Shown here piece by piece: positions 16,508 through 29,165 of a stretch of DNA of 29,165 bases. The translations under genes and the position numbers were made by a program. The stretch covers positions 1 to 29,165 of IMG/VR virus record IMGVR_UViG_2563366903_000025; one strand, given 5' to 3'. The stretch comes from a virus. Taxonomy: Duplodnaviria > Heunggongvirae > Uroviricota > Caudoviricetes. How positions within the stretch are numbered: position 1 is the first letter of the stretch; each line of letters begins with the position of its first letter. The notes beneath the pieces were generated by a model. The model was given only the letters and a program-made list of their open reading frames with translations. It had not been told where the DNA came from and ran no database searches.

Positions 16508-16794
16508 CTTTTAACTCCATATACCGCCAATACCCGTTTCATCACTGCACTCTGGCGACACTCCTTAAAAATCAGGTTCGTGCTCACCTTTCCTTCCCGT
16601 TCTTCCCTGGTAGCAAACCGGTAATACACCGTTCGCCAGACCTTACCATCAATGACCAGGATTCCTGCCCGCGCCATTTTAGCCGCAGCCTGATTTATAC
16701 TGGTTACGGTTGCGCCTGTTACCGCGGAAACGTCCTGTGCACAGAAGTTCTTATGCGCCCCGAGGTAATGAATAATTGCCTCTTTGCCCGTCAT
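16504..16794 (-). CDS. ren: Ren
   Basis: 96 aa MTGKEAIIHYLGAHKNFCAQDVSAVTGATVTSINQAAAKMARAGILVIDGKVWRTVYYRFATREEREGK..., near-identical to lambda Ren as recalled. Confidence 0.9.
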   Translation of the reverse strand: MTGKEAIIHYLGAHKNFCAQDVSAVTGATVTSINQAAAKMARAGILVIDGKVWRTVYYRFATREEREGKVSTNLIFKECRQSAVMKRVLAVYGVKR

Positions 16795-17492
16795 ACACTT
16801 GCTCCTTTCAGTCCGAACTTAGCTTTAATTTCTGCGATCTTCGCCAGAGCCTGTGCTCGATTTAGAGGTCTGCCGCCCATGACAGGAAGTTGTTTTACTG
16901 GTTCAGGTATCGTCTCACCACGGTTAATTCGTGCTGTCATACAGGTCAGTTCATCGGCAGCCTTGCGCCGTAATTCCGCGTCAGTCAGCGCATTGGCCCG
17001 CATGTTCTGGTACAGGTTGGTAACCAGCCAGTAGTGCGCGTTTGATTTCCACGGATAAGACTCTGCATCCGGATACAGGCCACGCTTCCGGCAATACTCG
17101 TAAACCATATCAACCAGCTCGCTGACGTTTGGCAGTCCGGCGATAACGGATGCTTCTTCCCGGCACCATGCAACAAACTGCCCGGGTGATGGAAGAAATG
17201 GTCGATTCTGCCGACGGGCTACGCGCATTCCTGCGTTAACCTGTTCCATCGAGGTGATCCCGTTTTCCCGGAAAGCCAGAACCCACTGGCGGCGGATTTC
17301 ATTCAGTTCGTTCTGGCCCCGGTTAGCCAGACTCGCCGGGAAAGTTGCCAGTAACTGGCTGAACACACCGTTGATGATCTGCGCTACCTGTTGTACCTGC
17401 GGCTTTTCGTCGTACTGTTCCGGCATGTTGTTGGCGATCCGACGCATCTGCTCACGGTCAAAGTTAACCATCTGTGCGGCGATGTTTTTCAT
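16791..17492 (-). CDS. P: Replication protein P (DnaB helicase loader)
   Basis: 233 aa, essentially lambda P throughout ([58 protein letters not shown]...). Confidence 0.95.
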   Translation of the reverse strand: MKNIAAQMVNFDREQMRRIANNMPEQYDEKPQVQQVAQIINGVFSQLLATFPASLANRGQNELNEIRRQWVLAFRENGITSMEQVNAGMRVARRQNRPFLPSPGQFVAWCREEASVIAGLPNVSELVDMVYEYCRKRGLYPDAESYPWKSNAHYWLVTNLYQNMRANALTDAELRRKAADELTCMTARINRGETIPEPVKQLPVMGGRPLNRAQALAKIAEIKAKFGLKGASV

Positions 17493-18394
17493 AAATCCAC
17501 CCCGTAAATCCAGTCAGTGTTTGTCAGGTCGAGTTTTGGTTTTCCAGCTGTCACGCCAGCCTGTTGCTTGTTACGGTTGATTTCGAGTTGGGTCCACTTG
17601 TCGCGGAGTTTGGCCGGACTTAGCACGTTACCGGACCAGAAGTTGTCCTGGCATGCCCAGCGGAACAGCACGCACATGTCGCGGTGGTTACGTCCGTCAC
17701 GTTCACGCATCAGGCGGATATCGTTAGCCCACCCTGCAAAATTCGGTTTTCTGGCTGATGGTGCGATGGTCTTCACCATGTCAAACATCCACTCTGCGGC
17801 GGTCAGGTCTTCTGCTGTTCCCCACTTGCTGCCGCTCTGAATTGCAGCATCCGGTTTAACCACAGAAAGATCGTTTTCTGGCTGGTCAGAGGATTCGCCA
17901 GAATTCTCGGACGAATAATCTTTTCTTTTTTCTTTTGTAATAGTTTCTTTTGTGTGTCCCTGTTTTGGTGACAGCGCTGTCACCGTTTTGGTGACACTTT
18001 TTGTCACCAATGCAGTGACATTATCACCAGAGTAGTGACACCCTTCGATTTGCCATTCCTCGATGTTCTTGTTAGGCCCGATTTGCTGGCCTTCGCGAAG
18101 GATAACCTTCATCGCGATAAGCTCATTCTTGGCCTTGTTTACCTTCTGTCTTGGCAGCCTGGTAATTTGAGCTAACTGACTATCAGAGATGCGATCCATC
18201 TTTTTACCGTAGCCGTATGTTTTACGGCATATGGCGTGGGCAACCTTGCTCTGATTTTTCGTTAAATCTGCGCCGATAAGCTCTTCATACAGGGCATTTG
18301 CAAGACGGGTATAACCATCTTCAACTTCTGCCACACGACGCTCCACAGGCCGTTGTGAAGGCCTTAAATGTGTTACGGTTGCAAGATTACTCAT
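17489..18394 (-). CDS. O: Replication initiator O
   Basis: 301 aa. C-terminal half matches lambda O ([13 protein letters not shown]...[100 protein letters not shown]). N-terminal DNA-binding half is diverged, consistent with a different iteron specificity. Confidence 0.95.
17915..18043. repeat. Replication origin: iteron cluster plus adjacent AT-rich region inside the O gene
   Basis: Four tandem dyad iterons built on GTGACA...TGTCAC: GGTGACAGCGCTGTCACC (17967-17984), GGTGACACTTTTTGTCACC (17990-18008), GTGACATTATCACC (18015-18028), GTGACACCC (18035-18043). A T-rich stretch follows at 17915-17950, in the same position as ori-lambda within O. Confidence 0.7.
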
Positions 18395-18565: not shown

Positions 18566-18862
18566 TCAGAATTCCATCTGGATTTGTTCAGAACGCTCGG
18601 TTGCCGCCGGGCGTTTTTTATTGGTGATTCCATCAAGCGCATACTTAAAAGCCCTGCTAATCGGACTGATGTCTGATGCCATTCCGAAAGCACACAGGAC
18701 CGAAGCAATAAATCTCCAGTCCGTTCTGCTTATCTTCGATTCATGACAGCCAATCATCTTTGCCAGACCGCGCTGGGTAAGCGTTGACAGGTTGATGAGT
18801 AAATCCGTTTCTGCGCGATCAACGTCGCGCTGGGATAGTTTGCTGTAACTTGTTTGTGTCAT
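18566..18862 (-). CDS. cII: CII transcriptional activator
   Basis: 98 aa. C-terminus ...[18 protein letters not shown] matches lambda CII as recalled; N-terminal HTH is diverged. Confidence 0.85.
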
Positions 18863-18900
18863 TTCTTAATATTTCCAATAGTGAATAGTTAGTTGAAAGG

Positions 18901-18918
18901 TATGCGTGGAAACGCATA
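18901..18918 (-). promoter_or_regulatory. Hairpin between nutR and cII (tR1 position)
   Basis: TATGCGT-ggaa-ACGCATA perfect 7-bp stem. No U-tract, so if it terminates it is not a canonical intrinsic terminator. Confidence 0.3.
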
Positions 18919-18947
18919 TGGCCTTAGTTGGTCAGATATCTTGGGGC

Positions 18948-18962
18948 TCGCTTTGTCAGCGA
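18948..18962 (-). promoter_or_regulatory. nutR boxB-like hairpin (P22 type)
   Basis: Minus-strand TCGCTGACAAAGCGA closely matches the nutL boxB GCGCTGACAAAGCGC at 21811-21825. A boxA-like CGCTATTTT lies upstream on the same strand. Confidence 0.6.
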
Positions 18963-19000
18963 CGTAGGACGAATGTCCATTGTGAAAATAGCGGTGTTAC

Positions 19001-19228
19001 TTATGCAGCCAGAAGGTTCTTTTTGCTTATTTCAAGCATTTCGCTTGCTTGATATTTGCCACCAGAAATCTCTTCGATTTTTGATGCGTATTTCGTTTTC
19101 CCAAAAAACTCAGTCTTAGGGAGGAAGCCGTTTTTGAGCCACTTATAGACAGCCCTTTCGCTAACTCCACAAGCCTTCGCAACTTCAGGGATGCCGACAC
19201 CTTTAATCGGCTCATCAAGATTTTGCAT
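19001..19228 (-). CDS. cro: Cro-like repressor (75 aa from ATG 19228)
   Basis: Small HTH protein (GIPEVAKACGVSERAVYKWLKNG) divergent from cI, with an AAGGA RBS. Position immediately right of the operator region. Confidence 0.7.
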   Translation of the reverse strand: MQNLDEPIKGVGIPEVAKACGVSERAVYKWLKNGFLPKTEFFGKTKYASKIEEISGGKYQASEMLEISKKNLLAA

Positions 19229-19243
19229 AGGGATATCCTTTTT

Positions 19244-19258
19244 CGTACTTTCAGTACG
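19244..19258. promoter_or_regulatory. Operator palindrome in OR (CGTACT-TTC-AGTACG), overlapping the pR start region
   Basis: Perfect 6-bp arms. A related AGTA-TCG-TACT element sits at 19295-19305 just before the cI ATG. Confidence 0.55.
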
Positions 19259-19259
19259 C

Positions 19260-19287
19260 ATTATGATTGAACTGAAAGTTTTTGCAA
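19260..19287 (-). promoter_or_regulatory. pR-like promoter for cro
   Basis: Minus strand reads TTGCAA-16 nt-CATAAT, immediately upstream of the operator palindrome and the cro RBS. Confidence 0.5.
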
Positions 19288-19306
19288 GTGCTTTAGTATC
19301 GTACTC

Positions 19307-20014
19307 ATGGTTCAGAATGAAAAAGTGCGCAAAGAATTCGCCCAGCGGCTAGCGCAAGCCTGTAAAGAAGCTGGTCTTGATGAACATGGTAGGGGAATGG
19401 CTATAGCCCGTGCCCTTTCTCTTTCGTCCAAAGGCGTTAGCAAATGGTTTAATGCTGAGTCTTTACCGCGTCAGGAAAAAATGAATGCGCTTGCGAAATT
19501 TCTAAACGTTGATGTTGTTTGGCTTCAGCACGGCACTTCGTTAAATGGAGCGAATGATGAAGATACTCTTTCATTTGTTGGCAAATTAAAAAAAGGGTTA
19601 GTGCGCGTGGTTGGTGAGGCAATTCTTGGTGTTGATGGTGCCATCGAGATGACCGAAGAGCGCGATGGGTGGCTCAAAATTTATAGCGATGATCCAGATG
19701 CCTTTGGTCTTCGTGTGAAAGGAGACAGCATGTGGCCCAGAATAAAATCAGGAGAATATGTACTCATTGAGCCTAACACCAAAGTATTTCCGGGGGATGA
19801 GGTGTTTGTCAGAACTGTTGAAGGACACAACATGATCAAAGTTCTTGGCTATGACAGAGACGGAGAATACCAATTTACAAGCATCAACCAGGACCACAGG
19901 CCAATAACGTTGCCTTATCATCAAGTAGCAAAGGTGGAGTATGTGGCTGGTATTCTGAAGCAATCTCGCCATCTGGATGACATCGAGGCAAGGGAGTGGC
20001 TGAAAAGTTCGTGA
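19307..20014 (+). CDS. cI: CI-type prophage repressor (HTH plus LexA/S24-like autocleavage domain)
   Basis: 235 aa. N-terminal HTH region, then a C-terminal domain with S24-like features (GDSMWPRIKSGEYVLIEP...). Divergent from cro across the operator region. The ATG sits directly after the operator, suggesting a leaderless pRM-type transcript as in lambda. Confidence 0.88.
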   Translation: MVQNEKVRKEFAQRLAQACKEAGLDEHGRGMAIARALSLSSKGVSKWFNAESLPRQEKMNALAKFLNVDVVWLQHGTSLNGANDEDTLSFVGKLKKGLVRVVGEAILGVDGAIEMTEERDGWLKIYSDDPDAFGLRVKGDSMWPRIKSGEYVLIEPNTKVFPGDEVFVRTVEGHNMIKVLGYDRDGEYQFTSINQDHRPITLPYHQVAKVEYVAGILKQSRHLDDIEAREWLKSS

Positions 20015-20096
20015 CTTCATCGTCACATAGCTGGTAACCAGTGGCCTGAAGAGACGTTTGGGTGATGTACATAGCATTTCTGGATAAAAATACAGA

Positions 20097-20138
20097 TTCC
20101 CTTTATGGGAAATGAATCTATAATTCCCAAAGAGGGAA
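20097..20138 (+). promoter_or_regulatory. Promoter with twin operator palindromes upstream of the toxin gene
   Basis: Perfect -10 TATAAT at 20119-20124, flanked by two TTCCC-N5-GGGAA dyads (20097-20111 and 20124-20138). The -35 is weak. Confidence 0.5.
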
Positions 20139-20150
20139 CAAAATCGGATT

Positions 20151-20438
20151 ATGAAGGTCTTAAACGTAGAGAGGCTTCACAGTTTTAGCCGGAAGCACAA
20201 TCAGGCCAAGGGGGCTTTAGACTCTTGGTATGATGAAGTGATAAGAGAAAACTGGAAAACGACTCAAGACATACGGAATAGATTTAATTCTGCCGACTTC
20301 CTTCCTAACAACAGGGTAATTTTTAATATAAAAGGCAATAACTATCGGCTCGTTGTCCAAGTTGTTTACCAGGCAGGAATGGTCATAGTTGAAAGAGTTG
20401 GAACTCATGCAGAGTACGACAAGTGGAGGCTTAAATGA
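20151..20438 (+). CDS. higB: HigB-family toxin (RelE/ParE superfamily)
   Basis: 95 aa. C-terminal ...GNNYRLVVQVVYQAGMVIVERVGTHAEYDKW parallels E. coli HigB ...NELRVVAMVFFESQKCYIREVMTHKEYD as recalled. Toxin-first order typical of hig loci. Stop overlaps the next start (ATGA). Confidence 0.75.
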   Translation: MKVLNVERLHSFSRKHNQAKGALDSWYDEVIRENWKTTQDIRNRFNSADFLPNNRVIFNIKGNNYRLVVQVVYQAGMVIVERVGTHAEYDKWRLK

Positions 20439-21091
20439 ATCGAACTAGCTGGCGCATCATTAAAAATAGTGAAGAGCATGCTGCAGCTATGGAAAGGCTC
20501 ATTGAACTTGCGTCTAGTGATTTACAACCTGGAACTGAAGATTTTGATGAGTTTGAACTACTAGGCTTGCTTATCGAGCACTATGAGTCACGCGAGTTCC
20601 CTATGGACAAGCCAGATCCCATAGAAGCAATCAAGTTCCGTATGGATCAACAAGGCCTCTCTTATGCCGATATGAAACAATACATTGGCTCAGCATCTAA
20701 AGTATCTGAGGTCTTAAATCGTAAGCGTCCATTAAGTCTTTCAATGATCCGTAGACTACATGACGGACTTGGAATTCCTGCAGATATCTTAATTCAAGAT
20801 ATGAGCGCAATTGAATGGAGCCTAGTTGACGCAGAGGAAGAAGAAACAGCCATGACTAGCGTCATTGCTCGGTGTGAGTCAGCCGTCACATCACCTTCTG
20901 CTTATTTCGCTGAAAAGGCTACAGAATCTTACTTTTCAAAAATGTTGTTCAGCGCAGTAAGGGGTAATGGCAAATGCAAAGAAAAACGGAATGTTTTTTC
21001 TTTGATAAGTAACTTGTCATCAAGTTTCACAGCGGCTAGCAACCTGAATGACGAAATGACTTCTGACGGAAATTACTTATTATTACCATGA
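20435..21091 (+). CDS. higA: HigA-family HTH antitoxin with about 95-aa C-terminal extension
   Basis: 218 aa. Residues up to about 125 match the HigA pattern (PDPIEAIKFRMDQQGLSYADMKQYIGSASKVSEVLNRKRPLSLSMIRRLHDGLGIPADILI). Canonical HigA ends there; this protein continues with an acidic, Ser-rich tail. Confidence 0.75.
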   Translation: MNRTSWRIIKNSEEHAAAMERLIELASSDLQPGTEDFDEFELLGLLIEHYESREFPMDKPDPIEAIKFRMDQQGLSYADMKQYIGSASKVSEVLNRKRPLSLSMIRRLHDGLGIPADILIQDMSAIEWSLVDAEEEETAMTSVIARCESAVTSPSAYFAEKATESYFSKMLFSAVRGNGKCKEKRNVFSLISNLSSSFTAASNLNDEMTSDGNYLLLP

Positions 21092-21492
21092 AAATTGAAC
21101 TCATTAGCAAAAAAGTTGAACGCTTGGTTATGACACGGCTAGAAGGCGATTCAACAGCAAAAAAAGCCATAAAAACAACCGTTAATCTAAATAATGAACT
21201 TTACACTAATGTGAAGGATTCAAAGCTATTTAGAGTGAGATATTTTGCCTCCGTAACTATTGAAGGCAGGCTTGAGATGGACATCACATACGACTTTGAC
21301 TTCCGGTCAGAAGATGATTTTTCTCATGAAATGGCAAAATCATATGAGGTAAGGTCCATTGCTCCCAATATGGCATATCCCTATATAAAAACATATGCCG
21401 AGCAAATTATCCTCATGTCAAACCTTGGTAGGTTCACTCTGCCTTATTTTGATTTCTTGGCCAATCCCATGGAAACGAACAGTAATAAGTGA
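21088..21492 (+). CDS. SecB-like chaperone candidate (third gene of the cassette)
   Basis: 134 aa, translationally coupled (ATGA). Segments FRVRYFASVTIEG and APNMAYPYIKTYAEQIILMSNLGRF resemble E. coli SecB ([34 protein letters not shown]) as recalled from memory. Confidence 0.55.
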   Translation: MKIELISKKVERLVMTRLEGDSTAKKAIKTTVNLNNELYTNVKDSKLFRVRYFASVTIEGRLEMDITYDFDFRSEDDFSHEMAKSYEVRSIAPNMAYPYIKTYAEQIILMSNLGRFTLPYFDFLANPMETNSNK

Positions 21493-21500
21493 AATTCCCC

Positions 21501-21528
21501 ACCCGGCCTCAGCGCCGGGTTTTCTTTG
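21501..21528 (+). terminator. Intrinsic terminator closing the cI-proximal operon (t-imm position)
   Basis: ACCCGGC-ctcagc-GCCGGGT followed by TTTTCTTT, 9 nt after the last stop codon. Confidence 0.6.
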
Positions 21529-21810
21529 CCTCACGATCCCCCACCTAAAAAAACATAACCATTTGTATTTATAGATGTAACTCGCTAAACCATGCAGTTC
21601 TGATCCCTGCCGCATAACCTTCATCAGCCACATTTTCAAAAATAAATTTCCTTATATATCAGAATCATACTTCGTAGAGTTAATAAATCACCAAAATTCG
21701 TACCAATAGTTCTTGATAATGTCGAACTATTGGTTCATCATTATCGTCATCAGCAGGACGCATTACTCACCAGGGCGGTGAATATACAACGATTCGAATA
21801 TGAATCTACG

Positions 21811-21825
21811 GCGCTGACAAAGCGC
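21811..21825 (+). promoter_or_regulatory. nutL boxB (P22 type)
   Basis: GCGCTGACAAAGCGC, identical to the P22 boxB as recalled, about 165 bp upstream of N. Confidence 0.7.
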
Positions 21826-21990
21826 AATAACCAAAGTGAACTTTGGGGTGTGGTGAAGGGTTCATGGACGGGAATATGTCGCACGTAAAGCGGCGAGGCC
21901 TGCGGGACTATTGCCGAATTGAAGTAGGCCGAAACAGGTCGAAATGGGTCTCCCACCTACCACACCACCAAAGTTCATCAGGAGGTCTAT

Positions 21991-22374
21991 ATGACACGCA
22001 GAACTCAGTTCAAAGGCAATTCACGTTCTCGTCGTCGTGAGCGTTTAAAGGCAAAGGCATTAGCTAACTGCGTACTGGCCCGCGAAGAAGCAATAAGTTC
22101 AGAAGTATTACACCGCCCTACTCTAAGCAGAGCGCAGATTCAGGCTAAAGGTACTCACGAAACGCCTGAGCGCATAGAAGACGCTAAGCCAATTAAGTTC
22201 ATTGCACAGGACGTGATCTGGCAACAGAAAGAATACAGACGCAATCTGGAGCGAGCAGCCATTGTGTACGCGAATGAGTTTGGACATAAGCAACCAGAAA
22301 CTGGTGTATGTCTTCCAAACGTAGCCATTTACGCGGCAGGCTACCGGAAATCAAAACAACTGACGGCAAGATGA
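21991..22374 (+). CDS. N: Antiterminator N (P22 gp24-like)
   Basis: 127 aa with N-terminal arginine-rich motif (GNSRSRRRERLKAKALA) and C-terminus LPNVAIYAAGYRKSKQLTAR matching P22 N as recalled. AGGAGG RBS. Confidence 0.8.
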   Translation: MTRRTQFKGNSRSRRRERLKAKALANCVLAREEAISSEVLHRPTLSRAQIQAKGTHETPERIEDAKPIKFIAQDVIWQQKEYRRNLERAAIVYANEFGHKQPETGVCLPNVAIYAAGYRKSKQLTAR

Positions 22375-22715
22375 CTTGTGTTGGTCGCCAGAAAATGAAA
22401 TTAGGCAGCAAACCACTTATTTGAGGACTGATACATGAGAGTAAAAACATGGGCACAAGCCCATTAAGTGGTCGTATTTTTCAAGGAACATTAAACACTG
22501 AAAAAGGAATGTGGGTAGGAAAAAAAAGAAGATGACACCGAACAGGCAGTTAAGGCAGTAGCCGAACACCTGATGATAAAAGACCAGAAATATGCATACG
22601 AAACGAAGGATGGCAAATGGCTGATAATAAGCCATCAACTGGTTGATAAATTACCAGAAGAGTTTATTGCTGGTTAAATTCACTTTGGAACAAATAACAG
22701 AATAAACACTGCACT

Positions 22716-27851: not shown

Positions 27852-29165
27852 ATGGATAAAGTCAAATATCCAACAGGCGTCGAAAACCACGGCGGCACAT
27901 TACGCATCTGGTTTAATTTTAAAGGTAAACGTGTCAGGGAAAATCTTGGTGTCCCTGACACTGCCAAGAACAGGAAGATCGCCGGGGAACTGCGGACATC
28001 GGTATGTTTTGCCATCCGCACAGGAAGCTTTGATTATGCTGCACAGTTCCCTGACTCCCCCAACCTTCAGGCTTTTGGGGTAAGTAAAAAAGAAATTACG
28101 GTGAAGGAACTTGAAGAAAAGTGGCTGGATCTGAAACGAATGGAAATCTCTGCAAATGCATTCAATCGCTATGAATCCGTTGCAAGAACGATGGTTTCGA
28201 AAATTGGAGGCAGTAGACTGGTGTCATCGGTAACCAAAGAGGAATTGCTGTATATCAGGAAAGATTTGCTAACCGGGTATCAGAATTCAACGAAAAACAA
28301 AGCAGCAGCAAAAGGACGGAGCGTCGTTACTGTAAATTATTACATGACGACAATCGCTGGAATGTTTCAGTTTGCTGCAGATCACGGTTACTTAGAAGCA
28401 AATCCCTTCCAGGGAATTAAGCCTCTTAAAAGAGCCAGGGCAGAGCCAGATCCGCTAACTCGTGACGAATTTATTCGCCTGATAGATGCTTGCCGACATC
28501 AGCAGACGAAAAACCTGTGGTCATTGGCTGTGTACACAGGAATGCGTCACGGTGAACTGGTCTCCCTGGCCTGGGAAGATATCGATCTGAAGGCAGGAAC
28601 AATTACCATCAGGCGCAATTATACGAAACTTGGTGAGTTCACTCTACCGAAAACTGAAGCAAGCACAAACAGGGTTGTGCACCTTATCCAGCCCGCTATC
28701 AGTGTCCTGAAAAATCAGGCTGAAATGACAAGACTGGGTAAGCAGTACAACATCAAGGTGCAACTACGTGAATATGGACGTTCAGTGAACCATGAATGTA
28801 CTTTCGTGTTTAACCCTCAAGTGGTTAGAAAAAGCGAACAGGTAGGTTTTGTCTACAAAGTCGATTCTGTAGGTGACTCATGGGAAACAGCCATTAAGCG
28901 TGCAGGGATCAGGCATCGAAAGGCATACCAGTCACGACACACTTATGCGTGCTGGTCATTATCTGCCGGAGCAAACCCAAGCTTCATTGCCAGCCAGATG
29001 GGCCATGCAAGTGCCCAGATGGTATTCAATGTATACGGAGCATGGATGACTGACAGCAATGCAGAACAGATCGCAATGCTGAATCAGAAGCTGACAGATT
29101 ATGTCCCAATGATGCCCCATAGTCACCAAAGTGACACCAGAGGCTTATTAAAATCAGTAAGTTAA
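27852..29165 (+). CDS. int: Tyrosine integrase (arm-binding N-terminal domain plus catalytic domain)
   Basis: 437 aa. N-terminus MDKVKYPTGVENHGGTLRIWFNFKGKRVRENLGVPDT (arm-type DNA-binding pattern). C-terminal catalytic region with R...H..R...Y context (SRHTYACWSL...NVYGAW). GGAGG RBS. Stop codon is the last triplet of the window. Confidence 0.9.
   Translation: MDKVKYPTGVENHGGTLRIWFNFKGKRVRENLGVPDTAKNRKIAGELRTSVCFAIRTGSFDYAAQFPDSPNLQAFGVSKKEITVKELEEKWLDLKRMEISANAFNRYESVARTMVSKIGGSRLVSSVTKEELLYIRKDLLTGYQNSTKNKAAAKGRSVVTVNYYMTTIAGMFQFAADHGYLEANPFQGIKPLKRARAEPDPLTRDEFIRLIDACRHQQTKNLWSLAVYTGMRHGELVSLAWEDIDLKAGTITIRRNYTKLGEFTLPKTEASTNRVVHLIQPAISVLKNQAEMTRLGKQYNIKVQLREYGRSVNHECTFVFNPQVVRKSEQVGFVYKVDSVGDSWETAIKRAGIRHRKAYQSRHTYACWSLSAGANPSFIASQMGHASAQMVFNVYGAWMTDSNAEQIAMLNQKLTDYVPMMPHSHQSDTRGLLKSVS

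What the first reader, a model, noticed from the sequence alone, without database searches (positions are those of the whole stretch)
20097..20138. Twin TTCCC-N5-GGGAA operators bracket a perfect -10 upstream of the toxin gene
Two identical-arm dyads (20097-20111 and 20124-20138) flank a TATAAT at 20119-20124, with a poor -35. This is the layout expected for an autorepressed toxin-antitoxin promoter. Because the cassette lies downstream of cI, it may also receive read-through from pRM in lysogens, giving two levels of control.
Basis: seen in the sequence. Interest (0 to 1): 0.45.

Follow-up and report, generated by a model that had tools for sequence, protein, structure and literature searches.

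The report
Antitoxin operators of a prophage defence operon
Two matching DNA palindromes sit on the promoter of a prophage toxin-antitoxin-chaperone defence operon (HigBAC) and are almost certainly where its own antitoxin binds to shut the operon off, which is the ordinary way such operons are controlled.

Summary
TTCCCTTTATGGGAA lies at 20097-20111, TTCCCAAAGAGGGAA at 20124-20138, and TATAAT at 20119-20124. About 0.03 exact matches are expected by chance in the window.

- In 64 distant homologous loci from many phyla, 49 carry an exact TCCC-N5-GGGA within 120 nt upstream of the toxin gene. The remaining 354 kb holds 2.
- The site always overlaps core promoter elements.
- Its bases co-vary with residues in and just after the antitoxin's recognition helix.
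- Close relatives in Klebsiella, Salmonella, Serratia and Citrobacter prophages keep both dyads and CTATAAT, while the spacers drift.
- E. coli K-12 higBA has the same layout with different half-sites (TTGCC-N5-GGCAA, twice, around TATCAT).

It is HigB, HigA with a disordered chaperone-addiction tail, and a SecB-like chaperone HigC. It differs by 1-2 residues per protein from the E. coli NT1F31 HigBAC antiphage system (Mets et al. 2024), and the promoter is identical. That preprint does not mention operators or autoregulation.

Read-through from pRM is plausible, because no terminator follows cI and the terminator after higC is the lambda rexB-type one. It was not tested. This is an ordinary mechanism and a new member of a known kind.

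The parts
20097..20111 (.). Operator O1: dyad TTCCC-TTTAT-GGGAA. Its left arm TTCCCT (20097-20102) is the best -35 candidate (3/6, 16-bp spacer).
   Evidence: exact, non-chance. (conserved upstream of homologous toxin genes). (invariant arms and variable spacer in close relatives).
20119..20124 (+). -10 hexamer TATAAT of the higBAC promoter. Its last base is shared with O2.
   Evidence: A TAnnnT hexamer in this register with dyad 2 is kept in nearly all of the two-dyad relatives listed: the Klebsiella, Salmonella, Serratia and Citrobacter HigBAC loci plus L024, L011, L031, L007, L004, L005 and L006.
20124..20138 (.). Operator O2: dyad TTCCC-AAAGA-GGGAA. It covers the predicted transcription start, about 20130-20132, which is inferred as 6-8 nt after the -10.
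   Evidence: Centre-to-centre distance to O1 is 27 bp, the modal spacing in two-dyad relatives.
20069..21500 (+). Variable cargo cassette (promoter, operators, higB, higA, higC) in the slot between cI and the shared terminator. Boundaries are approximate.
   Evidence: Alignments with prophages that share the cI 3' end and the terminator but carry other cargo break at about 20068 and rejoin at about 21500. A 933W-like phage carries stk and other genes in the same slot.
20151..20438 (+). higB, a RelE-like ribosome-dependent mRNase toxin of 95 aa.
   Evidence: Pfam PF09907 HigB_toxin, E 4.6e-30. PADLOC PD-Lambda-2_A, E 5e-42. PDB sequence match to E. coli HigB 5IFG. Two substitutions relative to NT1F31 HigB WP_112844290.1.
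20435..21091 (+). higA, a 218-aa antitoxin. The folded domain spans aa 1-124, with an HTH at aa 78-94. The recognition helix is aa 87-94 (nt 20693-20716). The disordered ChAD tail is aa 122-218 (nt 20798-21088).
   Evidence: Pfam HTH_3 match. AlphaFold model has pLDDT >90 for aa 10-120 and <50 from aa 125 on. Foldseek best hits are E. coli K-12 HigA 6KMQ, 6JQ4 and 6KML at 30% identity. One substitution relative to NT1F31 HigA. W128, F158, F188 and Y214 are present.
21088..21492 (+). higC, a 134-aa SecB-like TA chaperone. Its start overlaps the higA stop.
   Evidence: AlphaFold pLDDT 86.9. Foldseek top hits are M. tuberculosis Rv1957 SecB-like chaperone bound to the HigA1 ChAD (5MTW, TM 0.73-0.75, E 5e-7), then SecB 1QYN and 1FX3. 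PADLOC PD-T4-9_C, E 3e-11. One substitution relative to NT1F31 HigC. Y39, N41, R49 and D71 are present.
21501..21520 (+). Intrinsic terminator hairpin followed by a T-run. It is shared by prophages with different cargo and is homologous to the region at the end of lambda rexB.
   Evidence: 7-bp stem with 6 GC pairs, then TTTTCTTT. (invariant across three cargo types). (hits H57 and H58 lie under 'protein rexB').
19307..20014 (+). cI repressor (HTH plus S24 peptidase). pRM lies at about 19272-19299. The cI operators oR1, oR2 and oR3 lie at 19244-19258, 19268-19282 and 19300-19314, placed by transfer of annotation.
   Evidence: Pfam. Annotation of phage phi345, 99.1% identical over this stretch. 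Sequence read. The operators are of the form CGTACT-N3-AGTACG, unrelated to the dyads.

Best explanation
The two dyads are operators O1 and O2 for the HigA antitoxin on the promoter of the three-gene higB-higA-higC (HigBAC) operon. One HigA dimer, alone or carrying HigB, places its two helix-turn-helix motifs on the TTCCC and GGGAA arms. The arm centres are 10 bp apart, which is one turn of the DNA helix. O1 covers the weak -35 (TTCCCT). O2 starts at the last base of the perfect -10 and covers the predicted transcription start. Occupancy of either site should therefore exclude RNA polymerase, giving negative autoregulation. HigA folds only with the help of HigC, so operator occupancy should also depend on free chaperone. 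When a phage tail protein titrates HigC, repression would be lost at the same time as toxin neutralisation. A second input is likely in lysogens: transcripts from pRM can run through cI into the cassette and stop at the shared terminator after higC. What is shown: the sequence, its position, its conservation, the protein-DNA covariation, and the identity of the proteins. What is inferred: binding, repression, the transcription start, the chaperone link and the read-through.
For: 1. The dyads are not chance: 2 exact sites 27 bp apart against 0.03 expected in the window.
2. Phylogenetic footprint. Among 64 loci with 40-68% identical toxins from Gamma- and Betaproteobacteria, Bacteroidota, Anaerolineae, Verrucomicrobiota, Spirochaetia and others, 49 have an exact TCCC-N5-GGGA within 120 nt upstream of the toxin start, and 60 have one with at most 1 mismatch. 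The other 354 kb of the same loci hold 2 exact sites, an enrichment of roughly 1000-fold. The flanking sequence is not conserved.
3. The site always sits on core promoter elements. In two-dyad relatives the layout is dyad, then 7 nt, then (C/G)TAnAAT, then dyad, with 25-29 bp between centres and a mode of 27. In Betaproteobacteria a single GTCCC-N5-GGGAC fills the 17-bp spacer between a TTGnnn -35 and a TAAACT-like -10.
4. Close HigBAC relatives sit next to different repressors in Klebsiella, Salmonella, Serratia and Citrobacter. They keep both pairs of arms and CTATAAT, while the intra-dyad and inter-dyad spacers change.
5. Protein-DNA covariation. Antitoxins with S at position 91 have outer bases T...A in 45 of 48 cases. 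Those with the N88/R89/Y91 helix have G...C or A...C in 20 of 20 cases (Fisher p = 2e-14, uncorrected for phylogeny). The two antitoxins with R98 replaced by L or Q, from different phyla, have TTCCT...AGGAA on both arms. Residues 88-91 lie in the modelled recognition helix, aa 87-94.
6. Homology. The folded domain matches E. coli K-12 HigA, which is annotated as a DNA-binding repressor of its own operon. The E. coli hig promoter is described as having O1 and O2 sites (PMC12266136), and both HigA and HigBA bind it (PMC11869752). The K-12 promoter reads TTGCCAATCTGGCAA, then 14 nt including TATCAT, then TTGCCAATTTGTCAA.
7. The dyads lie inside the mobile cassette, about 29 bp from its left junction, so they move with the genes.
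8. They are unrelated to the operators of this window's cI or of the ST2-8624 cI.
Against: There is no experimental evidence for binding, repression, promoter activity or the transcription start, either for this sequence or for any member with the TTCCC-N5-GGGAA site. The -35 is weak, so promoter strength is unknown. The covariation classes largely follow clades: the Y91 class is essentially one betaproteobacterial group. The Fisher p-value therefore overstates independence. Fifteen of the 64 loci lack an exact site, and 4 lack even a 1-mismatch site. Whether HigB modulates binding is unknown. The HigBAC study expressed the operon from Ptet with 150 bp of native upstream DNA and did not examine regulation.
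Confidence: 0.85

Rival explanations
1. The sites are operators, but the effective repressor is the HigB-HigA complex. Toxin:antitoxin ratio would then tune repression (conditional cooperativity), rather than HigA acting alone.
For: Many type II TA systems behave this way (introduction of PMC12266136). Two separated operators could be bridged by a higher-order TA complex.
Against: For the closest characterised relative, E. coli K-12 HigBA, HigA and HigBA are reported to bind with similar strength (PMC11869752 citing Jadhav 2020). P. vulgaris HigA represses robustly alone and binds O1 and O2 non-cooperatively. A spacing of 27 bp, about 2.6 helical turns, puts the two dimers on roughly opposite faces of the DNA, which does not favour direct bridging (inference). 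Many relatives manage with a single dyad.
Confidence: 0.25
2. The dyads act as RNA. In read-through transcripts from pRM they form a stem-loop, with dyad 1 pairing with dyad 2, that attenuates, processes or stabilises the message.
For: The 20010-20160 RNA folds with the two dyads paired to each other, at -42.8 kcal/mol against -31.7 for shuffles (z = -2.9). The repeat finder reports the two dyads as an 87% complementary inverted pair.
Against: Any two copies of one palindrome will pair, so the fold is an automatic by-product. No U-tract follows on the + strand, and the terminator scan finds nothing there. Most relatives have a single dyad, or a dyad plus a half-site, and cannot form this structure, yet they keep the arms. 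Conservation follows the DNA half-site and the antitoxin helix, not stem complementarity, since spacers vary freely. Transcripts from the cassette's own promoter would start inside dyad 2 and lack dyad 1.
Confidence: 0.04
3. The dyads are bound by another regulator (phage cI or Cro, or a host factor) rather than by HigA.
For: The site lies 83 bp downstream of cI, in an immunity region dense with repressor sites.
Against: This window's cI operators are of the form CGTACT-N3-AGTACG, and those of ST2-8624 are TTTATCA...TGATAAA. Neither resembles the dyads. The same dyads occur next to unrelated repressors and in non-phage contexts across phyla, always together with the HigA homologue. They co-vary with HigA residues.
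Confidence: 0.03

Closest known systems
E. coli NT1F31 HigBAC toxin-antitoxin-chaperone antiphage system (Mets et al. 2024, bioRxiv 10.1101/2024.02.24.581848)
   Same: It is essentially the same operon. HigB differs by 2 residues, HigA by 1 and HigC by 1. The promoter is identical from 20069 through both dyads. It occupies the same slot downstream of a cI gene in a lambdoid prophage. The ChAD aromatics W128, F158, F188 and Y214 and the HigC pocket residues Y39, N41, R49 and D71 are all present.
   Different: The flanking phage is different: the cI N-terminal domain is unrelated, and this window's cro-cI and N regions are of the Stx2-phage I / 933W type. The preprint contains no occurrence of 'operator' or 'autoregulat', and it expressed the system from Ptet. 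The operators are therefore not described there.
E. coli K-12 HigB-HigA (YgjN-YgjM) and its hig promoter with O1 and O2
   Same: The toxin is in the same Pfam family (PF09907). It is the best structural and sequence match for the folded HigA domain. The gene order is toxin first. The promoter layout matches: two 5-N5-5 dyads with the -10 between them. HigA is a known autorepressor.
   Different: The half-sites differ (TTGCC/GGCAA against TTCCC/GGGAA), as does the spacing (29 against 27 bp). The recognition helix differs: SMVSRVL against SKVSEVL. HigA identity is only about 30%. K-12 HigA has no ChAD tail and no chaperone gene.
Proteus vulgaris Rts1 HigB-HigA with operators O1 and O2 (PMC12266136)
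   Same: Two inverted-repeat operators overlap the -35 and -10. Each is bound by one HigA dimer through two HTH motifs, and HigA alone is sufficient to repress.
   Different: It belongs to a different HigA/HigB lineage. The HTH is N-terminal (PMC6987408) and the toxin is not PF09907. The operator sequence is unrelated, and Foldseek similarity is weak (E about 0.08).
M. tuberculosis TAC (Rv1955-Rv1957: HigB1-HigA1-SecB-like chaperone)
   Same: It has the same tripartite logic: an antitoxin with a C-terminal chaperone-addiction region, plus a SecB-like chaperone that is the best structural match to HigC (5MTW; PMC5105189).
   Different: The ChAD here is more than twice as long. The proteins are distant, at 16-17% identity for the chaperone. 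The Mtb HigA1 operator was not compared here.
Lambda cI-rexA-rexB transcription unit
   Same: A defence cargo sits immediately downstream of cI and upstream of a homologous terminator. Mets et al. note the same slot. In lambda, rexAB is co-transcribed with cI from pRM (established knowledge).
   Different: The cargo is unrelated. Here the cargo also carries its own repressor-controlled promoter. Read-through has not been measured.

Membership tests
Antitoxin operator of an autoregulated type II TA promoter | Inverted repeat with half-site geometry suited to an HTH dimer | tested here: met
   There are two perfect 5-N5-5 dyads, with half-site centres 10 bp apart. The family-wide consensus is (T/G)TCCC-AWWWT-GGGA(A/C).
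Antitoxin operator of an autoregulated type II TA promoter | Overlap with the core promoter of the TA operon itself | tested here: met
   O1 contains the only plausible -35. O2 abuts the TATAAT and covers the predicted +1. The same overlap is seen in relatives with either one or two dyads. Promoter activity and the transcription start themselves were not measured.
Antitoxin operator of an autoregulated type II TA promoter | Site co-occurs and co-varies with the cognate antitoxin across homologues | tested here: met
   49 of 64 loci have an exact site, against 2 sites in 354 kb of background. S91 against Y91 tracks the outer base, and R98 tracks the inner base.
Antitoxin operator of an autoregulated type II TA promoter | Direct binding by the antitoxin and antitoxin-dependent repression | not testable with these tools
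   This needs EMSA or footprinting and reporter assays. No such data were found in the held literature.
HigBAC toxin-antitoxin-chaperone (TAC) system | HigB-family RelE-like toxin encoded first | tested here: met
   PF09907, E 4.6e-30. PD-Lambda-2_A.
HigBAC toxin-antitoxin-chaperone (TAC) system | HTH antitoxin with a disordered C-terminal ChAD extension carrying the aromatic pattern | tested here: met
   pLDDT is below 50 from aa 125 on. W128, F158, F188 and Y214 are present. Short-form homologues of about 130 aa lack the tail.
HigBAC toxin-antitoxin-chaperone (TAC) system | SecB-like chaperone gene as the third, translationally coupled cistron | tested here: met
   The fold matches Rv1957 and SecB. 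PADLOC PD-T4-9_C. The stop and start overlap at 21088-21091. Sequence-only tests failed: Pfam and NCBIfam gave no hit, the PDB profile gave no hit, and hhalign against SecB gave E 0.16.
HigBAC toxin-antitoxin-chaperone (TAC) system | Chaperone-dependent neutralisation and antiphage activity | not testable with these tools
   This was shown experimentally for the near-identical NT1F31 system, not for this allele.
E. coli K-12 HigA (YgjM) operator specificity | Same half-site sequence as the K-12 hig promoter (TTGCC/GGCAA) | tested here: not met
   The window has TTCCC/GGGAA and K-12 has TTGCC/GGCAA. The architecture is shared but the specificity is not.
Lambdoid cI/Cro operator | Match to the operator consensus of the resident repressor | tested here: not met
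   The resident cI operators are of the form CGTACT-N3-AGTACG, with no resemblance to the dyads.
Intrinsic terminator between cI and higB | GC-rich hairpin followed by a U-tract on the + strand | tested here: not met
   There is no + strand hit between 19307 and 21427. The only hit at the dyads is dyad 1 read on the - strand, with a 5-bp stem.

The most novel reading that the evidence does not exclude
Operator occupancy is gated by the chaperone. HigA folds and stays soluble only when HigC holds its ChAD tail, so titration of HigC by an incoming phage's major tail protein would free HigB and also empty O1 and O2. The protein-level trigger would thereby become a burst of higBAC transcription on top of constitutive pRM read-through. 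The system would be a two-input defence operon: the lysogenic repressor promoter sets the baseline, and a chaperone-sensed autorepressor sets the response.
Probability: 0.3. Interest if true: 0.5.

Novelty: new member of a known kind. Interest (0 to 1): 0.3.

Why it matters
It supplies the missing cis-regulatory map for a characterised prophage defence system, HigBAC: a promoter, two operators and a likely transcription start. Anyone cloning the '150 bp upstream' fragment is carrying these along. It also defines a recognition motif, (T/G)TCCC-AWWWT-GGGA(A/C), for a large HigA subfamily found across many phyla. Simple residue-to-base correlations accompany it (S88/K89/S91 against N/R/Y, and R98) that could be used to predict operators or to design orthogonal repressors. 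None of this changes how type II TA regulation is understood.

Tried and rejected
- The consensus sigma-70 scan does not list this promoter, because its -35 fails the 4/6 threshold. This is a limit of the scan, not evidence against the promoter.
- Dyad 1 is flagged as a terminator-like site on the - strand. This was rejected: the stem is only 5 bp and no gene or transcript is expected there.
- A second inverted repeat, AGATTC...GAATCT, flanks dyad 1 (I2). It is not conserved in the Salmonella, Serratia or Citrobacter relatives, so it is treated as chance.
- The 1-mismatch site at 28402 was considered as an extra HigA target. It lies inside an ORF and is within chance expectation.
- Sequence-only identification of the third gene as SecB failed with Pfam, NCBIfam, a PDB profile search and hhalign. 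The fold search and PADLOC succeeded.
- I first assumed the whole window was H-19B or BP-4795. This was wrong. Only the cI 3' end, the cassette and the terminator match those phages. The cro-cI 5' part matches Stx2 phage I and PhiR12, and N matches 933W. The ST2-8624 operators read are therefore not this window's cI operators, and I repeated the check with the correct ones.
- Literature searches for the motif and for the K-12 operator sequence gave nothing usable. Jadhav 2020 and Xu 2019 are not held.
Close relatives had to be fetched one by one.

Full report
OBSERVATION. TTCCC-TTTAT-GGGAA lies at 20097-20111, TATAAT at 20119-20124, and TTCCC-AAAGA-GGGAA at 20124-20138. The last T of the -10 is the first T of the second dyad. 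These are the only two exact matches to TTCCCN5GGGAA in the 29 kb window. Dinucleotide shuffles give 0.03 matches on average, and none of 100 reaches two. With one mismatch allowed, a third site appears at 28402. It lies inside a long ORF and is within the chance expectation of about one. The -35 is indeed poor. The best candidate is TTCCCT at 20097-20102 (3/6, 16-bp spacer), which is the left arm of dyad 1. There is no TG extension. This is why the consensus promoter scan did not list the site.

WHAT SURROUNDS IT. The window is a mosaic lambdoid, Stx-phage-like early region. Its genes are:
- P, 16791-17492 (-)
- O, 17489-18394 (-)
- cII, 18566-18862 (-)
- cro, ending at 19261 (-)
- cI, 19307-20014 (+)
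- three overlapping + strand genes at 20151-20438, 20435-21091 and 21088-21492
- a strong hairpin-plus-T terminator at 21501-21520
- N, 21991-22374 (+)

The stretch from the cI 3' end through the three genes to the terminator is 99.8% identical to BP-4795, ST2-8624 and many Stx1a/Stx2a phages, and 99.0% identical to H-19B. It is present in 88 of 5,426 complete E. coli genomes. The cro-cI 5' part matches Stx2 phage I and PhiR12 instead, and N matches 933W.

Prophages that share the cI 3' end and the terminator but carry other genes include one with a Clp-fold serine proteinase and one with small hypothetical proteins. In a 933W-like phage the slot holds stk and neighbouring genes. These diverge from the window at about 20068 and rejoin at about 21500. 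The dyads and the -10 therefore lie inside a mobile cargo cassette, about 29 bp from its left edge.

WHAT THE CASSETTE IS. The first gene is a HigB-family RelE-like toxin (PF09907, E 4.6e-30). The second is an HTH protein whose first 124 residues model confidently, with helices at 78-84 and 87-94 forming the HTH. This domain is most similar to E. coli K-12 HigA (6KMQ, 6JQ4 and 6KML, 30% identity). Residues 125-218 are predicted to be disordered.

The third gene has no Pfam, NCBIfam or PDB sequence match. Its model (pLDDT 86.9), however, matches the M. tuberculosis SecB-like TA chaperone Rv1957 bound to the HigA1 ChAD peptide (5MTW, TM about 0.74, E 5e-7), and then SecB itself. It also hits the PADLOC model for the CmdTAC chaperone (PD-T4-9_C, E 3e-11).

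This is the HigBAC toxin-antitoxin-chaperone system that Mets et al. (bioRxiv 10.1101/2024.02.24.581848) characterised from E. coli NT1F31. [quoted passage not shown] I fetched the NT1F31 locus, where the annotated proteins carry the accessions used in that study. HigB differs from the window's by 2 residues, HigA by 1 and HigC by 1. The promoter is identical from 20069 through both dyads. All residues they mutated are present: HigA W128, F158, F188 and Y214, and HigC Y39, N41, R49 and D71. That preprint never mentions operators or autoregulation, and it drove the operon from Ptet with 150 bp of native upstream DNA. No other held paper discusses the E. coli HigBAC promoter.

ARE THE DYADS OPERATORS? 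The decisive evidence is comparative. A scan of one genome per species returned 80 loci whose HigA homologues are about 40-62% identical to the window's. They come from very diverse bacteria, and nearly all have the toxin gene immediately upstream, aligned from residue 1.

- Enrichment. In the 120 nt upstream of the toxin start, 49 of 64 loci contain an exact TCCC-N5-GGGA, and 60 contain one with at most 1 mismatch. The remaining 354 kb of the same loci holds 2 exact sites. The surrounding sequence is unalignable. The consensus is (T/G)TCCC-A(A/T)(A/T)(A/T)T-GGGA(A/C).
- Position. The site is always on the core promoter. In the gammaproteobacterial and some other loci there are two dyads 25-29 bp apart (mode 27), with a TAnnnT hexamer ending on the first base of the second dyad, exactly as in the window. 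In Betaproteobacteria one dyad fills the 17-bp spacer between a TTGnnn -35 and a TAAACT-like -10. Several other loci have a dyad plus a downstream GGGAAC half-site.
- Close relatives. Four closer HigBAC operons sit next to unrelated repressors in Klebsiella, Salmonella salamae and Citrobacter prophages and in a Serratia element. They keep all four arms and CTATAAT, while the spacers inside and between the dyads change.
- Covariation. The DNA co-varies with the protein. Antitoxins with the S88-K89-V-S91 helix have T...A as the outer bases in 45 of 48 cases. Those with N-R-V-Y have G...C or A...C in 20 of 20. The only two antitoxins with R98 replaced by L or Q, from different phyla, have TTCCT...AGGAA on both arms. 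Residues 88-91 lie in the modelled recognition helix, and R98 lies in the loop after it. The statistics are inflated by shared ancestry, but the direction of the evidence is clear.
- The K-12 precedent. The E. coli K-12 higBA promoter, read directly, has the same design with a different half-site: TTGCCAATCTGGCAA, then 14 nt containing TATCAT, then TTGCCAATTTGTCAA. K-12 HigA is an annotated autorepressor whose O1 and O2 sites are referred to in the literature.

ALTERNATIVES. The dyads do not resemble the operators of this window's cI (CGTACT-N3-AGTACG type) or those of the ST2-8624 cI. On RNA the two dyads pair with each other (z = -2.9), but any two copies of a palindrome would do so. No U-tract follows, and most relatives have one dyad and cannot form the structure. 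Transcripts from the cassette's own promoter would begin inside dyad 2. I give the RNA reading about 4%. Whether HigA alone or HigB-HigA is the effective repressor cannot be decided here. The K-12 and P. vulgaris precedents favour HigA being sufficient.

MECHANISM. Shown: two perfect HigA-family sites placed over the -35 and from -7 to about +8 of a promoter with a perfect -10, inside the higBAC cassette. Inferred:
- One HigA dimer binds per dyad.
- Either site excludes RNA polymerase.
- The transcription start lies near 20130-20132, leaving a leader of about 20 nt with a weak ribosome-binding site for the toxin.
- The 27-bp spacing (about 2.6 turns) places the two dimers on roughly opposite faces of the DNA. 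This spacing is dictated by promoter geometry rather than by cooperativity.

Also inferred: HigA depends on HigC to fold (shown by Mets et al. for the near-identical system), so repression should require free chaperone and should collapse when gpV titrates HigC.

READ-THROUGH FROM pRM. There is no + strand terminator-like site between cI and the end of higC. The terminator after higC is conserved among prophages with different cargo and matches the region at the end of lambda rexB. In lambda, the cargo in this slot (rexAB) is co-transcribed with cI from pRM (established knowledge).

VERDICT. It needs one correction: the operon is a tripartite TAC defence system that is already characterised at the protein level. 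The operators themselves appear not to be described, but they are a textbook arrangement. This is a new member of a known kind and of modest interest.

Noticed in passing
window 21088-21492: The 134-aa ORF after the antitoxin, annotated 'hypothetical protein' in RefSeq and in phage records, is a SecB-like TA chaperone (HigC). Sequence profiles miss it, but the predicted fold matches Rv1957 and SecB, and PADLOC PD-T4-9_C hits it. The cassette is therefore a three-gene TAC system, not a two-gene TA.
   Followed up: yes
window ~20068 and ~21500: These are the junctions of a cargo hotspot between the cI 3' end and a shared terminator. Other prophages with the same flanks carry a Clp-fold serine proteinase, small hypothetical proteins, or (in a 933W-like phage) RuvC-like, stk and L0081/L0084 genes in this slot.
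   Followed up: partly
L002 (AF034975.3, phage H-19B), upstream of higB: The old H-19B GenBank record lacks one C in dyad 1 (TTCC-TTTATGGGAA) and one A in the preceding A-run, and it leaves the three cassette genes unannotated. The complete genome of strain H19 (NZ_AP027165.1) has the intact dyad. The deletions are therefore probably sequencing errors.
   Followed up: partly
L022-L080 (betaproteobacterial loci), about 30 nt upstream of the toxin ATG: In these homologues a single GTCCC-N5-GGGAC dyad fills the -35/-10 spacer, and the -10 ends only about 10 nt before the ATG. This suggests leaderless or near-leaderless toxin mRNAs.
   Followed up: no
window 18900-19800 versus 19900-21570 versus 21560-22400: The early region is mosaic. 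cro and the cI N-terminal domain match Stx2 phage I, PhiR12 and phi345. The cI C-terminus plus HigBAC match BP-4795, H-19B and ST2-8624. N matches 933W. NT1F31 carries the same cassette behind a cI with an unrelated N-terminal domain but the same C-terminal domain, which suggests recombination within cI.
   Followed up: partly
window 20151-21088: PADLOC assigns HigB and the HigA N-terminal domain to PD-Lambda-2 (A and B). The PD-Lambda-2_B model is 402 positions long and only its first 125 are matched. The HigB/HigA core is thus shared with a differently built defence system.
   Followed up: no
window 20088-20125: A second imperfect inverted repeat (AAATACAGATTC / GAATCTATAATT) flanks dyad 1. 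It is not conserved in the Salmonella, Serratia or Citrobacter relatives and is probably chance.
   Followed up: yes
window 19244-19258: The terminator scan flags CGTACTTTCAGTACG as a hairpin. By annotation transfer from phage phi345 it is the cI operator oR1, not a terminator.
   Followed up: yes
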